From positions 4,070 through 68,069 of the forward strand of contig CAWVFK010000025.1 of NCBI GenBank assembly GCA_963928595.1: a DNA stretch of 64,000 nt, in the 5' to 3' direction. A program made the position numbers and the translations under genes. Source of the DNA: Candidatus Coprosoma sp. (GTDB lineage: Bacteria > Bacillota_I > Bacilli_A > RF39 > UBA660). Shown here piece by piece: positions 52,968 to 57,056 of this stretch; the first letter of the stretch is position 1; every line of letters starts with the position of its first letter. The notes beneath the pieces are model-generated. The model ran no database searches. It saw only the letters and a program-made list of their open reading frames with translations, and was not told the origin of the DNA.

Positions 52968-53570
52968 TTAATCTATTTTCTCAAATATACTAGCAGGAGC
53001 TCCACAAATTGGACACACGAAATCATCTGGCAAAGTATCACCTTCATAAATATATCCACAGATTGGGCAGCGATAGCCTTTTTTAGGTTTTTCATATGTT
53101 GGAGCTTTTGGTGGTGTTACGCCATTTTTTACTTTATGGTAATAATCGTATGTCATGACTTCTTCATCTGATAAGTTTTGTGTATTCATAACTTTAGCAA
53201 TAAATATGGTATGTGTATCTAAATCTACTTCTTTTTTCACTTCACATTCAATTAAAGATGCCATATGATCTTTTAAATATTTAATACCATTACTATCAAC
53301 TTCAGTATTAAAGTTTTCATATTTATCAGTATCTTTACTACTTGTAAAACCAAAGGTTTGAATGACTTTCATATCGGTATTTTGAGTAAGTACTGTAGCG
53401 TTAAATTTTTGGTGTTTTTTTAACATCTGATTAGTGTAATTTTCTTTATTAATGGCAACTATTACTCTATCATTAGTGACTTGGGTTAAAGTATTTACAA
53501 CACAACCACTATTTTTTGTATTAATAATATAGACACCATAGGTTAATTTTCTTAATCCTTCTTTATTCAT
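52968..53570 (-). CDS. flavin reductase-like domain fused to rubredoxin
   Basis: N-terminal FMN-binding split-barrel-like region plus a C-terminal rubredoxin CPICGYIYEGD...FVCPICGAP. Confidence 0.8.
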   Translation of the reverse strand: MNKEGLRKLTYGVYIINTKNSGCVVNTLTQVTNDRVIVAINKENYTNQMLKKHQKFNATVLTQNTDMKVIQTFGFTSSKDTDKYENFNTEVDSNGIKYLKDHMASLIECEVKKEVDLDTHTIFIAKVMNTQNLSDEEVMTYDYYHKVKNGVTPPKAPTYEKPKKGYRCPICGYIYEGDTLPDDFVCPICGAPASIFEKID

Positions 53571-53578
53571 ATTTCTCC

Positions 53579-54130
53579 TTATATATATATATGTTTCTTT
53601 CGTGGAATTTCAATTTTATGAGTACGTTCATGCATATACTTGTCAATTAAAATCACTTTATTTTCTCTTAAGCTTTGTGGGACATCAATGATTCTTTGAT
53701 TCCTAGAACCTCTAAAATCGAGGTTTAAGCTAAATTCTTTGATATCAAATTTGCCATCAACTAAAACATCAACATATTTTAAAAGTTCCATCATATCTTT
53801 ACTTTTAAGAGTTTCTTCATAAGTAAAACCAGTATAGCACCAGACATTTAAGCCAATCTCTTTGGCATGTTTAGCTATTTCGGCACAAGCTTTAGCTTGA
53901 AACATCGGATCACCACCTGATAAAGTAATGCCTTGTTGACCTAAAAGAGTATCTAACTCTTGATTTACTTCATCAGTACTGACAGAAAAGCCGCCTTTAA
54001 AATCATGGGTAGTTGGATTGTGACATCCTTCACAATTATGGCTACACCCCTGAGTCCAAACGACGGTTCTAATTCCTGGGCCATCGACTATACTATCTGG
54101 TTGTAAGTCGCTGGCTAAACGTATTTTCAT
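53579..54130 (-). CDS. nrdG: anaerobic ribonucleoside-triphosphate reductase activating protein (radical SAM)
   Basis: GCSHNCEGCHN cluster motif and GITLSGGDP. The start ATG overlaps the stop of the upstream glycyl-radical ORF (TAATG). Confidence 0.92.
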   Translation of the reverse strand: MKIRLASDLQPDSIVDGPGIRTVVWTQGCSHNCEGCHNPTTHDFKGGFSVSTDEVNQELDTLLGQQGITLSGGDPMFQAKACAEIAKHAKEIGLNVWCYTGFTYEETLKSKDMMELLKYVDVLVDGKFDIKEFSLNLDFRGSRNQRIIDVPQSLRENKVILIDKYMHERTHKIEIPRKKHIYI

Positions 54131-54297
54131 TATTTAGCTTCTTTCATAAGTCCAGCAGTACTGTGTTTTACACGGTCATGTTCTTCAGCTCTTTTAGCAT
54201 TGTTAAATCTATCTGTAGTACCTACTAAATAACCGGTAATTCTTCTAATTCTTTCGAATTTTACTCCTTCTCCTACTTTTTTTTCGTCTGCTTTCAT
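54130..54297 (-). CDS. stand-alone NrdD C-terminal glycyl-radical segment (55 aa)
   Basis: Not in the ORF track. AGGAGG SD, 8-nt spacer, ATG 54297. Encodes MKADEKKVGEGVKFERIRRITGYLVGTTDRFNNAKRAEEHDRVKHSTAGLMKEAK, which carries the class III RNR radical motif R-I-x-G-Y-L. It is in frame with nrdD, separated only by TAG (54312..54310) and four codons. Confidence 0.75.
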   Translation of the reverse strand: MKADEKKVGEGVKFERIRRITGYLVGTTDRFNNAKRAEEHDRVKHSTAGLMKEAK

Positions 54298-54309
54298 TTT
54301 ATTTTCCTC

Positions 54310-56610
54310 CTATCTTCCTCCGCAAGAGTTTAGACTTGCGTTTTTTATTCTTTCCATTGGAACGCCTTCGCCTTCCTTACGTCCACATCCTGGACAGAAA
54401 TCACCAATTACACCTGTATATCCACAAACTGGGTCGCGGTCTACTGGGTGATTGATAGCACCATAACCGATACCATTATCATGCATAACTCTGATAATCT
54501 TTTCAAAGGCATCAACATTCATAGCAGTATCGCCATCTAATTCAACATAACTAATATGTCCTCCATTAGTTAGAGCATGGTATGGAGCTTCTAATTGAAT
54601 CTTTTTAACAGCTGAGATATTGTAATAAACTGGTACATGGAATGAATTTGTATAGTAATCTCTATCAGTTACACCTTTTATTTTTCCATAAACAGCTTTA
54701 TCAATGTTAGTAAATCTTCCTGATAAACCTTCAGCTGGAGTGGCAATTAATGAGAAATTTAATTTATATTCTTCAGCATATTTATCGATTCTTTCTCTCA
54801 TAAAGCCAATGATTTTTAATCCTAAATCTTGAGCTTCTTCGCTTTCACCATGATGCTTACCAATTAAGGCTTTTAAACATTCAGCTAAGCCAATGAAACC
54901 AATAGTTAAAGTTCCATGTTTTAATACTTTTCTTAATCTATCAGTTGGTTTTAGTTTTTCACTATCTATCCAAATCCCCTGACCTAATAAGAATGGAAAA
55001 TTATAAATTCTTTTAGAACATTGTATTTCGAATCTTTCAAGTAATTGGTCTTTTACTAAATCCATTAATTCTCCTAGTTCTTTAAAGAAACCATCTAAAT
55101 CAGTTTCCCCACTAACGATTCCATGTTTAATACCTAATCTTGGTAAGTTAATAGAAGTGAATGATAGATTTCCTCTACCTGGAGTAATAGATTTGTTTGG
55201 ATCAACTGAGTTACCTAGGACTCTTGTTCGGCAGCCCATATAACCAACTTCTGTTTCAAAATTATTTGGATCATAATACTCTAAATTAAATGGGGCATCA
55301 ATGAATGAGAAGTTTGGAAATAACCTTTTTGCAGAAACTTCACAAGCTAATCTGAATAAATCATAGTTTGGATCTCCTGGATTATAATTAATTCCTTCTT
55401 TTACTTTGAAAATTGAAATTGGAAAAATTGGAGTTTCGTGATTTCCCAAACCAGCATCGGTAGCAAGTAAATAATTTCTCATTGCCATTCTACCTTCTGG
55501 TGAAGTATCTGTTCCAAAGTTAATTGATGAGAATGGTACTTGAGCACCAGCTCTTGAATGCATAGTATTTAAATTATGAATAAATGCTTCCATAGCTTGA
55601 TATGTTTGTCTATCTGTTTTTTCATAAGCTTTGTCATAAGCTTTTTTAAATAATCTTTTTAGTTGTTCTGAATCTTTAGTAAATGGATCAAACATGTTTA
55701 AATCAATATCAATTGTTTTAATTTTATCTATTTCTTTAGCTACTCTATCCATATTTATGAAATATTCAAAATCAGTTAAATCTAAATAATCATAAATTGC
55801 TTGTTTTAATTGCTTTTTGAACGTACATAAAACACCTGGAGCCATATAGTAATCAAAAGCTGGAATAGCTTGCCCACCGTGTTGATCATTTTGGTTGGCT
55901 TGGATAGCAATGGCAGCTAAAGCTGTATAACTGATAATATCTTTTGGTTCTCTTAGATAACCATGACCAGTTGAAAAACCATTTTTGAACAATTTGCGCA
56001 AATCTATTTGGCAACAAGTTGTTGTACCCATTGGTAAGAAATCCATATCGTGAATATGAATATCACCATTGTCATGTGCTTCAGCAAATTTGGGCTTCAT
56101 TAAATAGGCTTTGGCAAATTCTTTAGAAACAGTTGAACCATATTGAAGCATTGTTCCCATGGCGGTATCACCATCAACATTAGCATTTTCTCTTTTGGCA
56201 TTTTCTTCATAAGAAGATTTTAAGCCTAAACTTTCTAAAGCTTTTAAGAATTTATGTTGTTTCTTTTCACCAAAGAAGACTTGTCTTGAAACATTTCTTC
56301 TTTCACGGTAATCAGCAAATGCTTTATAAACATCTGGATAACCTTGTTTTTGAAGTTCAGCTTCGATTAAATCTTGAATAGCCTCGATTTTGATTTTTTC
56401 TTCATTTTGATATTCTTTTTCAATACGTTTGATAACGGCATTGTAAACTTTATTTACGTCTTTTTCTGAATAACTTTTTTCTTCACCTTTTTCTAAACTG
56501 TCAAAAGCTTTTTTGATGGCAATGGCAATTTTAGTACCATTCCATTCTACCTTCTTACCACTACGTTTGATGACTGTTAAGTAGTCTAATTTTTCTTCTT
56601 CAATTGTCAT
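54310..56610 (-). CDS. nrdD: anaerobic ribonucleoside-triphosphate reductase, large part, lacking the glycyl-radical motif
   Basis: 766 aa with an ATP-cone N-terminus, the class III RNR core and a CPGCG zinc ribbon near the end. It terminates at TAG before any RxxGY motif. TTGACT-N17-TATAAT promoter at 56637..56665. Confidence 0.93.
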   Translation of the reverse strand: MTIEEEKLDYLTVIKRSGKKVEWNGTKIAIAIKKAFDSLEKGEEKSYSEKDVNKVYNAVIKRIEKEYQNEEKIKIEAIQDLIEAELQKQGYPDVYKAFADYRERRNVSRQVFFGEKKQHKFLKALESLGLKSSYEENAKRENANVDGDTAMGTMLQYGSTVSKEFAKAYLMKPKFAEAHDNGDIHIHDMDFLPMGTTTCCQIDLRKLFKNGFSTGHGYLREPKDIISYTALAAIAIQANQNDQHGGQAIPAFDYYMAPGVLCTFKKQLKQAIYDYLDLTDFEYFINMDRVAKEIDKIKTIDIDLNMFDPFTKDSEQLKRLFKKAYDKAYEKTDRQTYQAMEAFIHNLNTMHSRAGAQVPFSSINFGTDTSPEGRMAMRNYLLATDAGLGNHETPIFPISIFKVKEGINYNPGDPNYDLFRLACEVSAKRLFPNFSFIDAPFNLEYYDPNNFETEVGYMGCRTRVLGNSVDPNKSITPGRGNLSFTSINLPRLGIKHGIVSGETDLDGFFKELGELMDLVKDQLLERFEIQCSKRIYNFPFLLGQGIWIDSEKLKPTDRLRKVLKHGTLTIGFIGLAECLKALIGKHHGESEEAQDLGLKIIGFMRERIDKYAEEYKLNFSLIATPAEGLSGRFTNIDKAVYGKIKGVTDRDYYTNSFHVPVYYNISAVKKIQLEAPYHALTNGGHISYVELDGDTAMNVDAFEKIIRVMHDNGIGYGAINHPVDRDPVCGYTGVIGDFCPGCGRKEGEGVPMERIKNASLNSCGGR

Positions 56611-57056
56611 AAGTACCTCCCATATTTTCTAAACTGATTATATACCGCGTTATGATGAGAGTCAATAGTAAATGTTCGTTTTTTTTGAACTTTTTTTCAT
56701 GGTGTTTTACGAGCCTTTATTTTTCAATGATTTTTGCAAAAAAATAAATTTTTGTAAAATTTTACATTTTTGATTTTTTATGTTTTTTAATTTTTTCTAA
56801 CTTTATTTTGTGTGTTTTAATACACGTTTTCCCCTTATTTTTCTTTACTTTATTGTCTTTTTCTTTTGCTTTTTGACATTTTTATTTTTTGTCAAAAATA
56901 CGTTTTTTGATTTTTTTGTATTTTGTAATTTTCTATTTTTTTGATTTTTTTCTTTTTAGAAAATATACAAATGTTTTTAAATATGAAAGGTAAAATGTTC
57001 GCTTTTTAGGTATATAAAATACAAACAAAACATATACTTGTTTAAGGGTGATGTAG

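What the first reader, a model, noticed from the sequence alone, without database searches (positions are those of the whole stretch)
54130..54360. nrdD split by an in-frame TAG: the glycyl-radical segment is a separate SD-led 55-codon ORF, preceded by a decayed duplicate of its first residues
The 766-aa NrdD ORF ends ...CPGCGRKEGEGVPMERIKNASLNSCGGR-TAG (stop at 54312..54310) without the radical-bearing RxxGY motif that class III RNRs need. Four in-frame codons later, TAGGAGGAAAATAAAATG provides a perfect AGGAGG SD and an ATG (54297). This opens MKADEKKVGEGVKFERIRRITGYLVGTTDRFNNAKRAEEHDRVKH..., which carries that motif, and its stop overlaps the nrdG start (TAATG). The tail of the large ORF (KEGEGVPMERIKN...) parallels the start of the small ORF (KVGEGVKFERIRR...), with 8 of 13 residues identical. 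This looks like a tandem duplication whose first copy lost ITGY. There are three possibilities. It could be a genuine two-piece NrdD with a detachable, replaceable radical domain, conceptually like GrcA/YfiD for pyruvate formate-lyase. It could rely on TAG read-through. Or it could be a recent nonsense mutation or a sequencing error. A hairpin CGCAAG/CTTGCG (about 54321..54340) lies just before the stop.
Basis: partly seen in the sequence, partly recalled or inferred. Interest (0 to 1): 0.65.

Follow-up and report, generated by a model that had tools for sequence, protein, structure and literature searches.

The report
Two-piece anaerobic ribonucleotide reductase (split NrdD)
This small-genome gut bacterium and most of its family encode the oxygen-sensitive enzyme that makes DNA building blocks as two proteins, with the radical-carrying loop on a separate 55-residue peptide, and I found no paper describing this layout.

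Summary
The 766-aa NrdD ORF (56610..54310, minus strand) ends at TAG without the glycyl-radical loop. After 12 nt, AGGAGG and an ATG open a 55-codon ORF that carries RRITGY, and its stop overlaps the nrdG start.

It is neither an error, a recent pseudogene nor read-through.
- **Conservation:** the split is present in all 21 nrdD loci read from the genus and in 63 of 84 loci read across the family and its outgroups.
- **Separate translation:** all 63 split loci have an ATG start. In 38 of them the small ORF is out of frame with the large one, and the gap is 2-52 nt.
- **Selection:** the small ORF core evolves at dN/dS 0.05, the same as the catalytic core.
- **Sole RNR:** no class I/II RNR was found in this genome or in 15 congeners, two of them single-contig assemblies.
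- **Read support:** the TAG stands in contigs from four other metagenomes. RNA-library contigs from close relatives run through the junction.

The "decayed duplicate" is a real duplication of about 11 residues. It is not decaying: the large-chain tail is under purifying selection (dN/dS 0.14) and is conserved family-wide. The hairpin is not conserved.

Best reading: an obligate two-chain class III RNR. A GrcA-like consumable role is untested. Lone copies of the small gene lie in phage contigs.

The parts
56637..56665 (-). Best sigma-70-like promoter match (TTGACT-17-TATAAT, 11 of 12) upstream of nrdD. This is the likely operon promoter.
   Evidence: No comparably strong match lies before the small ORF, and the number of promoter-like sites in the region is not above shuffles.
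54310..56610 (-). nrdD large chain, 766 aa plus TAG: ATP-cone (residues 12-106), catalytic barrel and zinc ribbon (DPVC...CPGC). It has no glycyl-radical loop.
   Evidence: PF13597 8.8e-191, PF03477, and NF005497 at 1036 bits against a cut-off of 764, covering model positions 3-714 of 746; residues 12-744 align to P. copri NrdD 8P23 residues 8-704. C199, C460 and N481 are invariant in the alignment; dN/dS 0.054 over the last 175 core codons.
54313..54378 (-). C-terminal tail of the large chain (residues 745-766, KEGEGVPMERIKNASLNSCGGR), which follows the last zinc-ribbon knuckle.
   Evidence: conserved in 20 genus loci; dN/dS 0.137; the AF2 fusion model gives mean pLDDT 84 for residues 741-750 and 65 for 751-760, with a short helix at 752-756.
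54340..54372 (-). Copy 1 of the duplicated segment (large-chain residues 747-757, GEGVPMERIKN), colinear with the ancestral ...DGVKFERIRR of unsplit relatives.
   Evidence: In the 63 split loci the tail has E in 61, G in 49, V in 54, E in 55 and I/V/L in all 63 at the ancestral register.
54310..54312 (-). TAG stop of the large chain. Its AG is part of the Shine-Dalgarno sequence.
   Evidence: unchanged in contigs of four other metagenomes. TAG ends 115 of 464 long open frames in the genome, and no CUA-anticodon tRNA was found.
54306..54311 (-). Shine-Dalgarno AGGAGG for the small ORF, 8 nt before the ATG.
   Evidence: TAGGAGG is conserved in 17 of 20 genus loci; a purine-rich SD-like run precedes the ATG in the 63 split loci listed.
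54130..54297 (-). Small chain, 55 aa plus TAA: the glycyl-radical loop and C-terminal part of the NrdD glycyl-radical domain. It has its own ATG.
   Evidence: PF13597 positions 532-562 of 562 and NF005497 positions 710-744 of 746; fusion residues 785-816 align to 8P23 residues 707-738; dN/dS 0.05 over the 37 core codons, 0.49 over the 8-codon leader and 1.07 after RVKH; one copy in the genome.
54241..54273 (-). Copy 2 of the duplicated segment (small-chain residues 9-19, GEGVKFERIRR), which leads into the radical loop.
   Evidence: G, G, F, I, R and R are nearly invariant in 63 loci; the segment ERIRRI (fusion residues 786-791) is a strand in the AF2 model.
54232..54234 (-). Codon of the presumed radical glycine (G22 of the small chain, in RRITGY).
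   Evidence: aligns with the RITGY motif of P. copri NrdD, whose radical glycine is Gly711 (PMC11226230). It is invariant in alignment A1 (G793 of the fusion).
53579..54130 (-). nrdG, the radical-SAM activase. Its ATG overlaps the small ORF's TAA by one base.
   Evidence: TIGR02491 at 160 bits against a cut-off of 126..
52968..53570 (-). Flavin-reductase/rubredoxin fusion gene, 9 nt after nrdG on the same strand. Probably the last gene of the operon; its role was not tested.
   Evidence: PF01613 1.1e-20 and PF21349 9.7e-13.
54321..54340 (.). Hairpin CGCAAG-N8-CTTGCG inside the tail codons. Probably incidental.
   Evidence: a 5-6 bp stem in about 10 of 20 genus loci, broken in the rest, with no compensatory change; it scores as terminator-like only on the antisense (+) strand.

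Best explanation
The locus encodes an obligate two-chain class III (anaerobic) ribonucleotide reductase. The 766-aa chain carries the ATP-cone, the catalytic barrel with its conserved cysteines, and the zinc ribbon. The 55-aa chain carries the glycyl-radical loop (RRITG*Y) and the C-terminal segment that, in one-chain NrdD, lies across the top of the barrel.

Both chains are made from one operon mRNA: nrdD-large, small ORF, nrdG, then a flavin-reductase/rubredoxin gene. The small ORF is started independently at its own AGGAGG-N8-ATG, which sits 15 nt after the first base of the large chain's stop. nrdG is translationally coupled to the small ORF (TAATG).

Inferred steps: the peptide binds the large chain non-covalently and puts its loop into the barrel next to the radical cysteine (C460). 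NrdG abstracts the hydrogen atom from G22 of the peptide. Catalysis then runs as in one-chain NrdD.

The split arose from a one-chain ancestor inside this family. The break lies inside the glycyl-radical domain, between the zinc ribbon and the radical loop. An approximately 11-residue junction segment (x-E-G-V-x-x-E-R/K-I) was duplicated, and both chains still keep it under selection. This segment may contribute to how the two chains hold together (inference).
For: **Two ORFs that together equal one NrdD.** The large and small ORFs cover HMM positions 3-714 and 710-744 of 746. They align to 8P23 residues 8-704 and 707-738, with a 40-residue insert between them.

**Conserved split.** All 21 genus loci read are split, as are 63 of the 84 loci read across the family and its outgroups. 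In an even sample of the order, about four fifths of the 101 genomes with a hit have the radical segment in an open frame of fewer than 80 aa.

**Independent initiation, not read-through.** All 63 split loci start with ATG after an SD-like run. The frames relative to the large ORF are 25/23/15, the gap is 2-52 nt, and the stop is TAA in 32 and TAG in 31. No suppressor tRNA was found and TAG is a normal stop in this genome.

**Purifying selection.** dN/dS is 0.05 for the small-chain core, 0.054 for the large-chain core and 0.137 for the large-chain tail.

**Sole RNR found.** PF02867 was not found in this genome or in 15 congeners, including two single-contig genomes, while the control genomes gave hits. 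There is one small-ORF copy per genome.

**Sequence is real.** Contigs from four other metagenomes are identical at the junction. Contigs from RNA libraries of chicken gut, from close relatives (about 93% identical, plus a second congener), run colinearly from the nrdD 3' end through the small ORF into nrdG without indels. One of these contigs has depth of about 250.

**Canonical fold.** The AF2 model of the artificial fusion (pLDDT 83.6) matches P. copri NrdD (TM 0.80-0.90). The linker 761-775 is disordered and the small chain's ERIRRI forms a strand.

**Derived state.** Outgroups and the basal grade of the large-chain tree are unsplit.

**The peptide may act in trans.** Lone copies with the same N-terminal boundary lie in phage contigs, with no large chain within 4 kb.
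Against: There is no protein-level or activity evidence. Nobody has shown the 6-kDa peptide, the complex or a glycyl radical on it.

The genomes are metagenome-assembled. This one is 89% complete, so the absence of other RNRs rests mainly on two single-contig congeners rated 90-91% complete. Two congeners (G002, G005) show no NrdD at all, so deoxynucleoside salvage cannot be excluded as a backup.

I could not read the coordinates of the AF2 model. How the tail and the peptide touch is therefore unknown, and a fused model cannot prove non-covalent assembly.

RNA-library contigs can contain DNA carry-over, and those laid here come from close relatives rather than this strain.

The tree needs at least 2-3 changes of state. 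The history (one origin with re-fusions, or several origins) is not settled.
Confidence: 0.85

Rival explanations
1. Consumable-cartridge (GrcA-like) reading. The split persists because the radical peptide is a disposable part. Oxygen cleaves the chain at the radical glycine, so only a 55-aa peptide is lost and the 766-aa body is reloaded with a fresh peptide, which could also be phage-encoded. This refines the two-chain model and does not replace it.
For: Oxygen cleavage at the radical glycine, and rescue by the small GrcA/YfiD protein, are established for pyruvate formate-lyase (review PMC13450708). The P. copri NrdD glycyl-radical domain is a mobile body that leaves the barrel (PMC11226230). 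Lone small genes sit among phage genes in 73 of the best 80 viral loci. A flavin-reductase/rubredoxin gene of the kind linked to oxygen defence follows nrdG.
Against: Nothing here tests exchange or turnover. The genome has one copy of the small gene and no extra or separately regulated copy. No strong internal promoter was found. The gene order and translational coupling suggest the two chains are made together rather than the peptide in excess (inference).
Confidence: 0.15
2. One fused chain is made after all, by TAG read-through, frameshifting or ribosome bypass, and the ATG/SD is incidental.
For: In this genome the two ORFs are in frame and only four codons apart. The same holds in 25 of 63 family loci.
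Against: Thirty-eight of 63 loci are out of frame, spread over both other frames. Gaps vary from 2 to 52 nt, with no conserved slippery or bypass signal. ATG and an SD-like run are present in the 63 split loci. No CUA-anticodon tRNA was found and TAG is used as an ordinary stop. The spacer takes 1-5 nt indels within the genus.
Confidence: 0.03
3. Sequencing or assembly error, or a strain-specific nonsense mutation in a decaying gene.
For: None beyond the bare presence of a stop inside a normally continuous gene.
Against: The same architecture is found in all 21 genus loci read and in 63 family loci. dN/dS is 0.05 on the small ORF. Contigs from four other metagenomes are identical at the junction. 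No other RNR was found in the genus.
Confidence: 0.01
4. The two chains are joined after translation, by a split intein or another ligation.
For: Split inteins and fractured genes are known in RNR genes (PMC2677866 and PMC3653736, listed and read).
Against: The extra sequence is only about 22 aa on the large chain and 8 aa on the small chain, far too short for intein halves. Pfam finds no intein, Hint or endonuclease domain. The extra segments are homologous to NrdD itself, as a duplicated junction.
Confidence: 0.01

Closest known systems
One-chain class III RNR NrdD with activase NrdG (Prevotella copri NrdD, PDB 8P23; phage T4 NrdD, 1H7A/1HK8; NCBIfam NF005497/TIGR02487)
   Same: It has the same domains in the same order: ATP-cone, barrel, zinc ribbon, RxxGY loop and C-terminal RVKH segment. 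The fold match is TM 0.80-0.90 with 41-43% identity. The conserved cysteines and asparagine are present. nrdG is adjacent.
   Different: The polypeptide is broken inside the glycyl-radical domain, between the zinc ribbon and the radical loop. There is a 40-residue insert relative to 8P23. The insert consists of a conserved new C-terminal tail, a stop, an SD, an ATG and a short K/E-rich leader, and about 11 junction residues are present twice.
GrcA/YfiD of E. coli and Y06I of phage T4 (autonomous glycyl-radical cofactors, spare parts for pyruvate formate-lyase)
   Same: It is a small free-standing protein that carries a glycyl-radical loop and has a short charged N-terminal leader. Phage-borne lone copies exist (PMC13450708).
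   Different: It belongs to a different sequence family: it hits the NRDD model PF13597 and not Gly_radical PF01228. Its partner has no glycine loop of its own, so here the peptide is the only radical carrier and not a back-up. It is encoded inside the enzyme's operon, directly after the large chain. The 2026 review states that spare parts are known only for formate lyases.
Genes-in-pieces RNRs: NrdA-a/NrdA-b of Aeromonas phage Aeh1 (mobE insertion), NrdJa/NrdJb (for example Thermus phage phiYS40, 12-nt gap), and split phage nrdD genes (introns, inteins, phiAS4)
   Same: A catalytic RNR chain is encoded as two adjacent ORFs that must assemble (PMC3653736; PMC3045599, listed).
   Different: No mobile element, intron or intein lies between the pieces here (15 nt). 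The break isolates the radical-bearing loop as a 55-aa peptide instead of cutting the barrel. It is fixed and under selection across a bacterial family. The phage survey (PMC3653736) never mentions the glycyl radical.
Class I RNR (NrdA with the separate radical-storing subunit NrdB)
   Same: In concept, the stable radical is kept on a polypeptide separate from the catalytic chain.
   Different: There is no homology. NrdB is a roughly 40-kDa metalloprotein that transfers the radical over a long path. Here the peptide is the enzyme's own loop and presumably sits in the active site.

Membership tests
Class III RNR catalytic protein NrdD (NF005497 / TIGR02487 / PF13597) | Sequence match above the curated cut-off | tested here: met
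   the large chain scores 1036 bits against a cut-off of 764, and 579 bits on TIGR02487 against 326; read through the stop, the locus covers model positions 3-744 of 746.
Class III RNR catalytic protein NrdD (NF005497 / TIGR02487 / PF13597) | Active-site residues of the barrel: the radical cysteine (P. copri C416), the second cysteine and the asparagine of formate-type enzymes | tested here: met
   C460 in MGCRTRV aligns with the P. copri MGCRTRV. C199 and N481 are invariant in the 39-row alignment.
Class III RNR catalytic protein NrdD (NF005497 / TIGR02487 / PF13597) | Glycyl-radical motif RxxGY on the same polypeptide as the barrel | tested here: not met
   the motif lies on a separate 55-codon ORF. 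This is true in all 63 split family loci.
Class III RNR catalytic protein NrdD (NF005497 / TIGR02487 / PF13597) | Dedicated radical-SAM activase NrdG next to it | tested here: met
   TIGR02491 at 160 bits against a cut-off of 126. The gene overlaps the small ORF's stop.
Class III RNR catalytic protein NrdD (NF005497 / TIGR02487 / PF13597) | Forms a glycyl radical and reduces ribonucleoside triphosphates | not testable with these tools
   Needs anaerobic reconstitution, EPR and an activity assay.
GrcA/YfiD-type spare-part glycyl-radical proteins | Homology to the PFL-type glycyl-radical domain (Pfam PF01228) | tested here: not met
   the small chain hits only PF13597 (NRDD) at an E-value of 0.01 or better.
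GrcA/YfiD-type spare-part glycyl-radical proteins | Coexists with a full-length parent enzyme that has its own radical domain, which the small protein replaces after damage | tested here: not met
   there is one NrdD locus and one small ORF in the genome, and the large chain lacks the loop.
GrcA/YfiD-type spare-part glycyl-radical proteins | Restores activity to the oxygen-cleaved enzyme | not testable with these tools
   Biochemical test only.
Genes-in-pieces / fractured RNR genes (homing endonuclease, intron or intein in the gap) | Two adjacent ORFs that together equal the one-chain homologue | tested here: met
Genes-in-pieces / fractured RNR genes (homing endonuclease, intron or intein in the gap) | Mobile element or its remnant between or at the ends of the pieces | tested here: not met
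   The gap is 15 nt here and 2-52 nt across the family. Pfam finds no intein or endonuclease domain. The added residues are a duplicate of NrdD's own junction.

The most novel reading that the evidence does not exclude
The 55-residue peptide may be an exchangeable radical cartridge and not a fixed subunit. In this reading NrdG loads the radical onto the peptide, which docks into a loop-less barrel. After oxygen cleavage or turnover it is discarded and replaced, and phages supply their own copies to run the host's large chain. The duplicated junction segment kept on the large chain would then act as the docking or placeholder strand for the peptide's identical segment. That would give class III RNR a class-I-like separation of catalytic and radical-bearing subunits. 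It would also answer the open question of whether spare-part proteins exist outside pyruvate formate-lyase.
Probability: 0.12. Interest if true: 0.85.

Novelty: new variant of a known kind. Interest (0 to 1): 0.62.

Why it matters
Glycyl-radical enzymes are described as single chains that carry their own radical loop. The one known exception is the GrcA spare part of pyruvate formate-lyase. [quoted passage not shown]

Here an apparently essential glycyl-radical enzyme, the only RNR found in these genomes, is naturally built from a body and a detachable 6-kDa radical peptide. This holds across a whole family of gut bacteria.

Three things follow.
- It is a ready-made system for asking how the activase reaches the glycine, how the loop enters the barrel, and whether oxygen damage can be repaired by swapping a peptide.
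- It shows one route by which a gene can split: a junction duplication followed by a stop, an SD and an ATG.
- Annotation pipelines should pair the orphan 50-60-aa "NrdD" fragments with an apparently truncated NrdD rather than treating either as a pseudogene.

Tried and rejected
- **Hairpin at 54321..54340 as a regulatory element.** I folded 20 genus junctions. The stem is present in about half, broken in the rest, and shows no compensatory changes. It scores as a terminator only on the antisense strand. Rejected.
- **Internal promoter for the small ORF.** Only 9-of-12 matches were found, and the count is no higher than in shuffles. Not supported.
- **Altered genetic code or suppressor.** aragorn on the whole assembly found no CUA, UUA or UCA anticodon, and TAG ends 25% of long open frames. 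Rejected.
- **Contacts between the tail and the peptide in the AF2 model.** Only pLDDT and secondary structure could be used.
- **A diverse alignment from the large protein database.** The 120 hits listed for the fusion query were all split large chains of at least 90% identity. I built the AF2 alignment from family loci instead.
- **Single origin of the split.** The quick tree needs 3 changes, with at least 2 forced by well-supported branches. The tails of the separate 4-locus clade closely resemble those of the main clade. I could not decide between re-fusion, recombination and repeated origin.
- **Literature.** Three full-text searches and four papers checked found split RNR genes in phages and the GrcA work. 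None described an NrdD whose radical loop is a separate peptide.


Full report
**What is in the sequence**

On the minus strand, a 766-aa ORF (56610..54310) is a class III ribonucleotide reductase catalytic protein. It has an ATP-cone and the NRDD barrel. It scores 1036 bits on NF005497 against a cut-off of 764, but it matches only model positions 3-714 of 746.

- The ORF ends ...CPGCGRKEGEGVPMERIKNASLNSCGGR-TAG, with the stop at 54312..54310.
- The TAG overlaps AGGAGG (54311..54306). Eight nt further on, an ATG (54297) opens a 55-codon ORF, MKADEKKVGEGVKFERIRRITGYLVGTTDRFNNAKRAEEHDRVKH..., which matches model positions 710-744.
- The small ORF's TAA shares a base with the ATG of nrdG (TIGR02491, 160 bits).
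- A flavin-reductase/rubredoxin gene follows 9 nt after nrdG.

**Not an error and not a recent lesion**

- A search of 40 relatives found the same interruption in the genus. Eleven congeners have one in-frame stop, and the others have the radical segment in another frame about 100 nt downstream. Genomes from the same order and class outside the family have an uninterrupted gene.
- Reading the junctions shows that all 21 genus loci, this one included, have the same layout: a conserved tail, a stop, GGAGG, an ATG and a conserved small ORF.
- In an even sample of 201 genomes of the order, 101 have the radical segment. In about four fifths of those it lies in an open frame of only 54-78 aa.
- Contigs from four other faecal or gut metagenomes cover the junction. 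None has a variant at 54310..54312 or an indel.
- Contigs from chicken-gut RNA libraries come from close relatives: one about 93% identical, and a second congener at contig depth of about 250. They run colinearly from the nrdD 3' end through the small ORF into nrdG. The usual caveat applies that such libraries can hold DNA.

**Two proteins, not read-through**

I read 63 split loci from the family.

- The small ORF always starts with ATG after an SD-like purine run.
- The distance from the large ORF's stop to that ATG is 2-52 nt (median 18).
- The small ORF is in frame 0, +1 or +2 relative to the large ORF in 25, 23 and 15 loci.
- The stop is TAA in 32 loci and TAG in 31.
- Within the genus the spacer differs by 1-5 nt between species.
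- The assembly has no tRNA with a CUA anticodon, and TAG ends 115 of 464 long open frames.

Being in frame in this genome is therefore incidental. TAG is probably kept in this genus because its AG belongs to the Shine-Dalgarno sequence.

**Selection and dispensability**

Pairwise dN/dS over 20 genus sequences:

| Region | Codons | dN/dS |
|---|---|---|
| Large-chain core (last part) | 175 | 0.054 |
| Small-chain core (GEGV...RVKH) | 37 | 0.05 |
| Small-chain leader | 8 | 0.49 (low dS, as expected near a start site) |
| Small-chain residues after RVKH | 11 | 1.07 |

No class I or II RNR domain (PF02867) was found in this genome or in 15 congeners, two of them single-contig assemblies. Twelve control genomes gave hits. 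The genome has one NrdD locus and one small ORF. The split enzyme is thus the only RNR found. Completeness of the assemblies (this one 89%) limits this statement.

**The "decayed duplicate"**

The duplication is real.

- Unsplit relatives read CPGCxRxExDGVKFERIRRITGY.
- In split loci the large chain continues colinearly as CPGCGRKEGEGVPMERIKN..., and the small chain re-starts the same segment as ...VGEGVKFERIRRITGY.
- Over 63 loci the two copies share 4.8 of 11 residues in that register. Shuffled tails give 1.0, and every other register gives 1.9 or less.

The first copy is not decaying. The tail has dN/dS 0.137 (0.118 for the duplicated part and 0.157 for the rest). Its E-G-V-x-x-E-x-(I/L/V) pattern is kept in 49-63 of the 63 loci, depending on the position.

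Both chains therefore keep the junction segment under selection. I infer, but cannot show, that it matters for folding of the zinc ribbon on one side and for docking of the peptide on the other.

**Structure context**

The nearest solved structure is P. copri NrdD (8P23). Residues 12-744 of the artificial fusion align to its residues 8-704, and residues 785-816 align to 707-738. About 40 residues are therefore inserted inside the glycyl-radical domain, between the zinc site and the Gly711 loop.

In that enzyme the domain (residues 676-739) is a mobile body that becomes disordered in the inhibited state (PMC11226230).

I built an AF2 model of the TAG=Q fusion from a 39-row family alignment. It has mean pLDDT 83.6 and matches 8P23/8P2S at TM 0.80-0.90. 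The linker 761-775 is below pLDDT 50. The tail forms a short helix at 752-756 (pLDDT about 65), and the small chain's ERIRRI is a strand.

**History**

I built a tree of 84 large chains cut before the junction.

- The outgroups and a basal grade of family members are unsplit.
- The split loci form one clade of 59, a second clade of 4 and a single locus.
- At least 2-3 changes of state are needed.

The tails of the 4-locus clade closely resemble those of the main clade. Re-fusion or recombination is therefore as plausible as repeated origin, and this remains open.

**Comparison with what is known**

- The small chain is not a GrcA family member. It hits only the NRDD model, and its partner has no loop of its own, so it is the regular radical subunit and not a spare.
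- Split RNR genes are known in phages and some bacteria through introns, inteins, homing endonucleases and NrdJa/b. No mobile element is present here, and the phage survey never mentions the glycyl radical.
- I found no paper describing an NrdD with its radical loop on a separate peptide.
- Databases already hold the pieces under generic NrdD names, for example "large subunit [Firmicutes bacterium CAG:822]" and Candidatus Ventrenecus avicola.
- Earlier notes of this scan report the same layout in many other genomes and the same lack of literature. I treat these as leads. My own tests here agree with them on the split and on the phage copies.

**Side observation bearing on mechanism**

A scan of viral contigs found 556 stretches encoding relatives of the small chain.

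- Of the best 80 loci, 73 are lone small ORFs with no NrdD large chain within 4 kb.
- All of them have the same N-terminal boundary.
- Three that I checked sit beside an endolysin, a large terminase, an exonuclease and a DNA methyltransferase.

This suggests that the peptide can work in trans with a large chain encoded elsewhere. It keeps a "replaceable cartridge" reading alive, but exchange or repair was not tested. I give that reading low odds.

**Verdict**

The locus is an obligate two-chain class III RNR (confidence 0.85). It is a new variant of a known enzyme kind, unreported in the literature I could search and directly testable.

Noticed in passing
L085-L164 (IMG/VR viral contigs): Of the best 80 viral loci encoding relatives of the 55-aa chain, 73 hold a lone small ORF with no NrdD large chain within 4 kb. 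There were 556 confirmed stretches in all. The lone ORFs are 65-92% identical to the window's peptide and all keep the G-x-G-V-x-F-E-R-I-R-R-I-T-G-Y boundary. Neighbours include an endolysin (L092), a large terminase and an exonuclease (L112), and a DNA methyltransferase and a PAPS-reductase-like gene (L105).
   Followed up: partly
window 54313-54339 and the large-chain tails of L042-L084: The new C-terminus of the large chain is cysteine-rich in most family members. There are at least 2 Cys in the last 9 residues (CxC, CC or CxxC) in 34 of 63 loci, one Cys in 18 (including this window, C763) and none in 11. Eleven small chains also carry Cys in their otherwise unconstrained C-tails. Purpose unknown; a metal or disulphide tether between the chains, or a redox tail, are possibilities.
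   Followed up: partly
window 52968-53570 (minus strand): A 200-aa fusion of a flavin-reductase-like domain and a rubredoxin starts 9 nt after nrdG on the same strand. It may be an electron donor or an oxygen-defence partner of the operon. Its conservation next to nrdG in relatives was not examined.
   Followed up: no
G001:C10, G004:C53, G015:C14, G021:C23 (same genus): Some congeners carry a second, distant and unsplit NrdD type (about 757-aa frame, only about 275 bits on NF005497). Three of them show no split-type NrdD. G002 and G005 show no NrdD and no class I/II RNR at all; these assemblies are incomplete.
   Followed up: no
L014 (G021), L043 (G102), L044 (G193): The nrdD of one congener (G021) groups with those of two other genera and not with its own genus. 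States are also mixed inside genera g22, g65 and g79. This suggests transfer or recombination of the nrdD operon within the family.
   Followed up: partly
window 54321-54340, plus strand: The hairpin plus T-run scores as an intrinsic-terminator-like site only on the strand antisense to the operon. No gene would use it there, so it is probably a by-product of the AAAAAA (Lys-Asn) codons next to the stem.
   Followed up: yes
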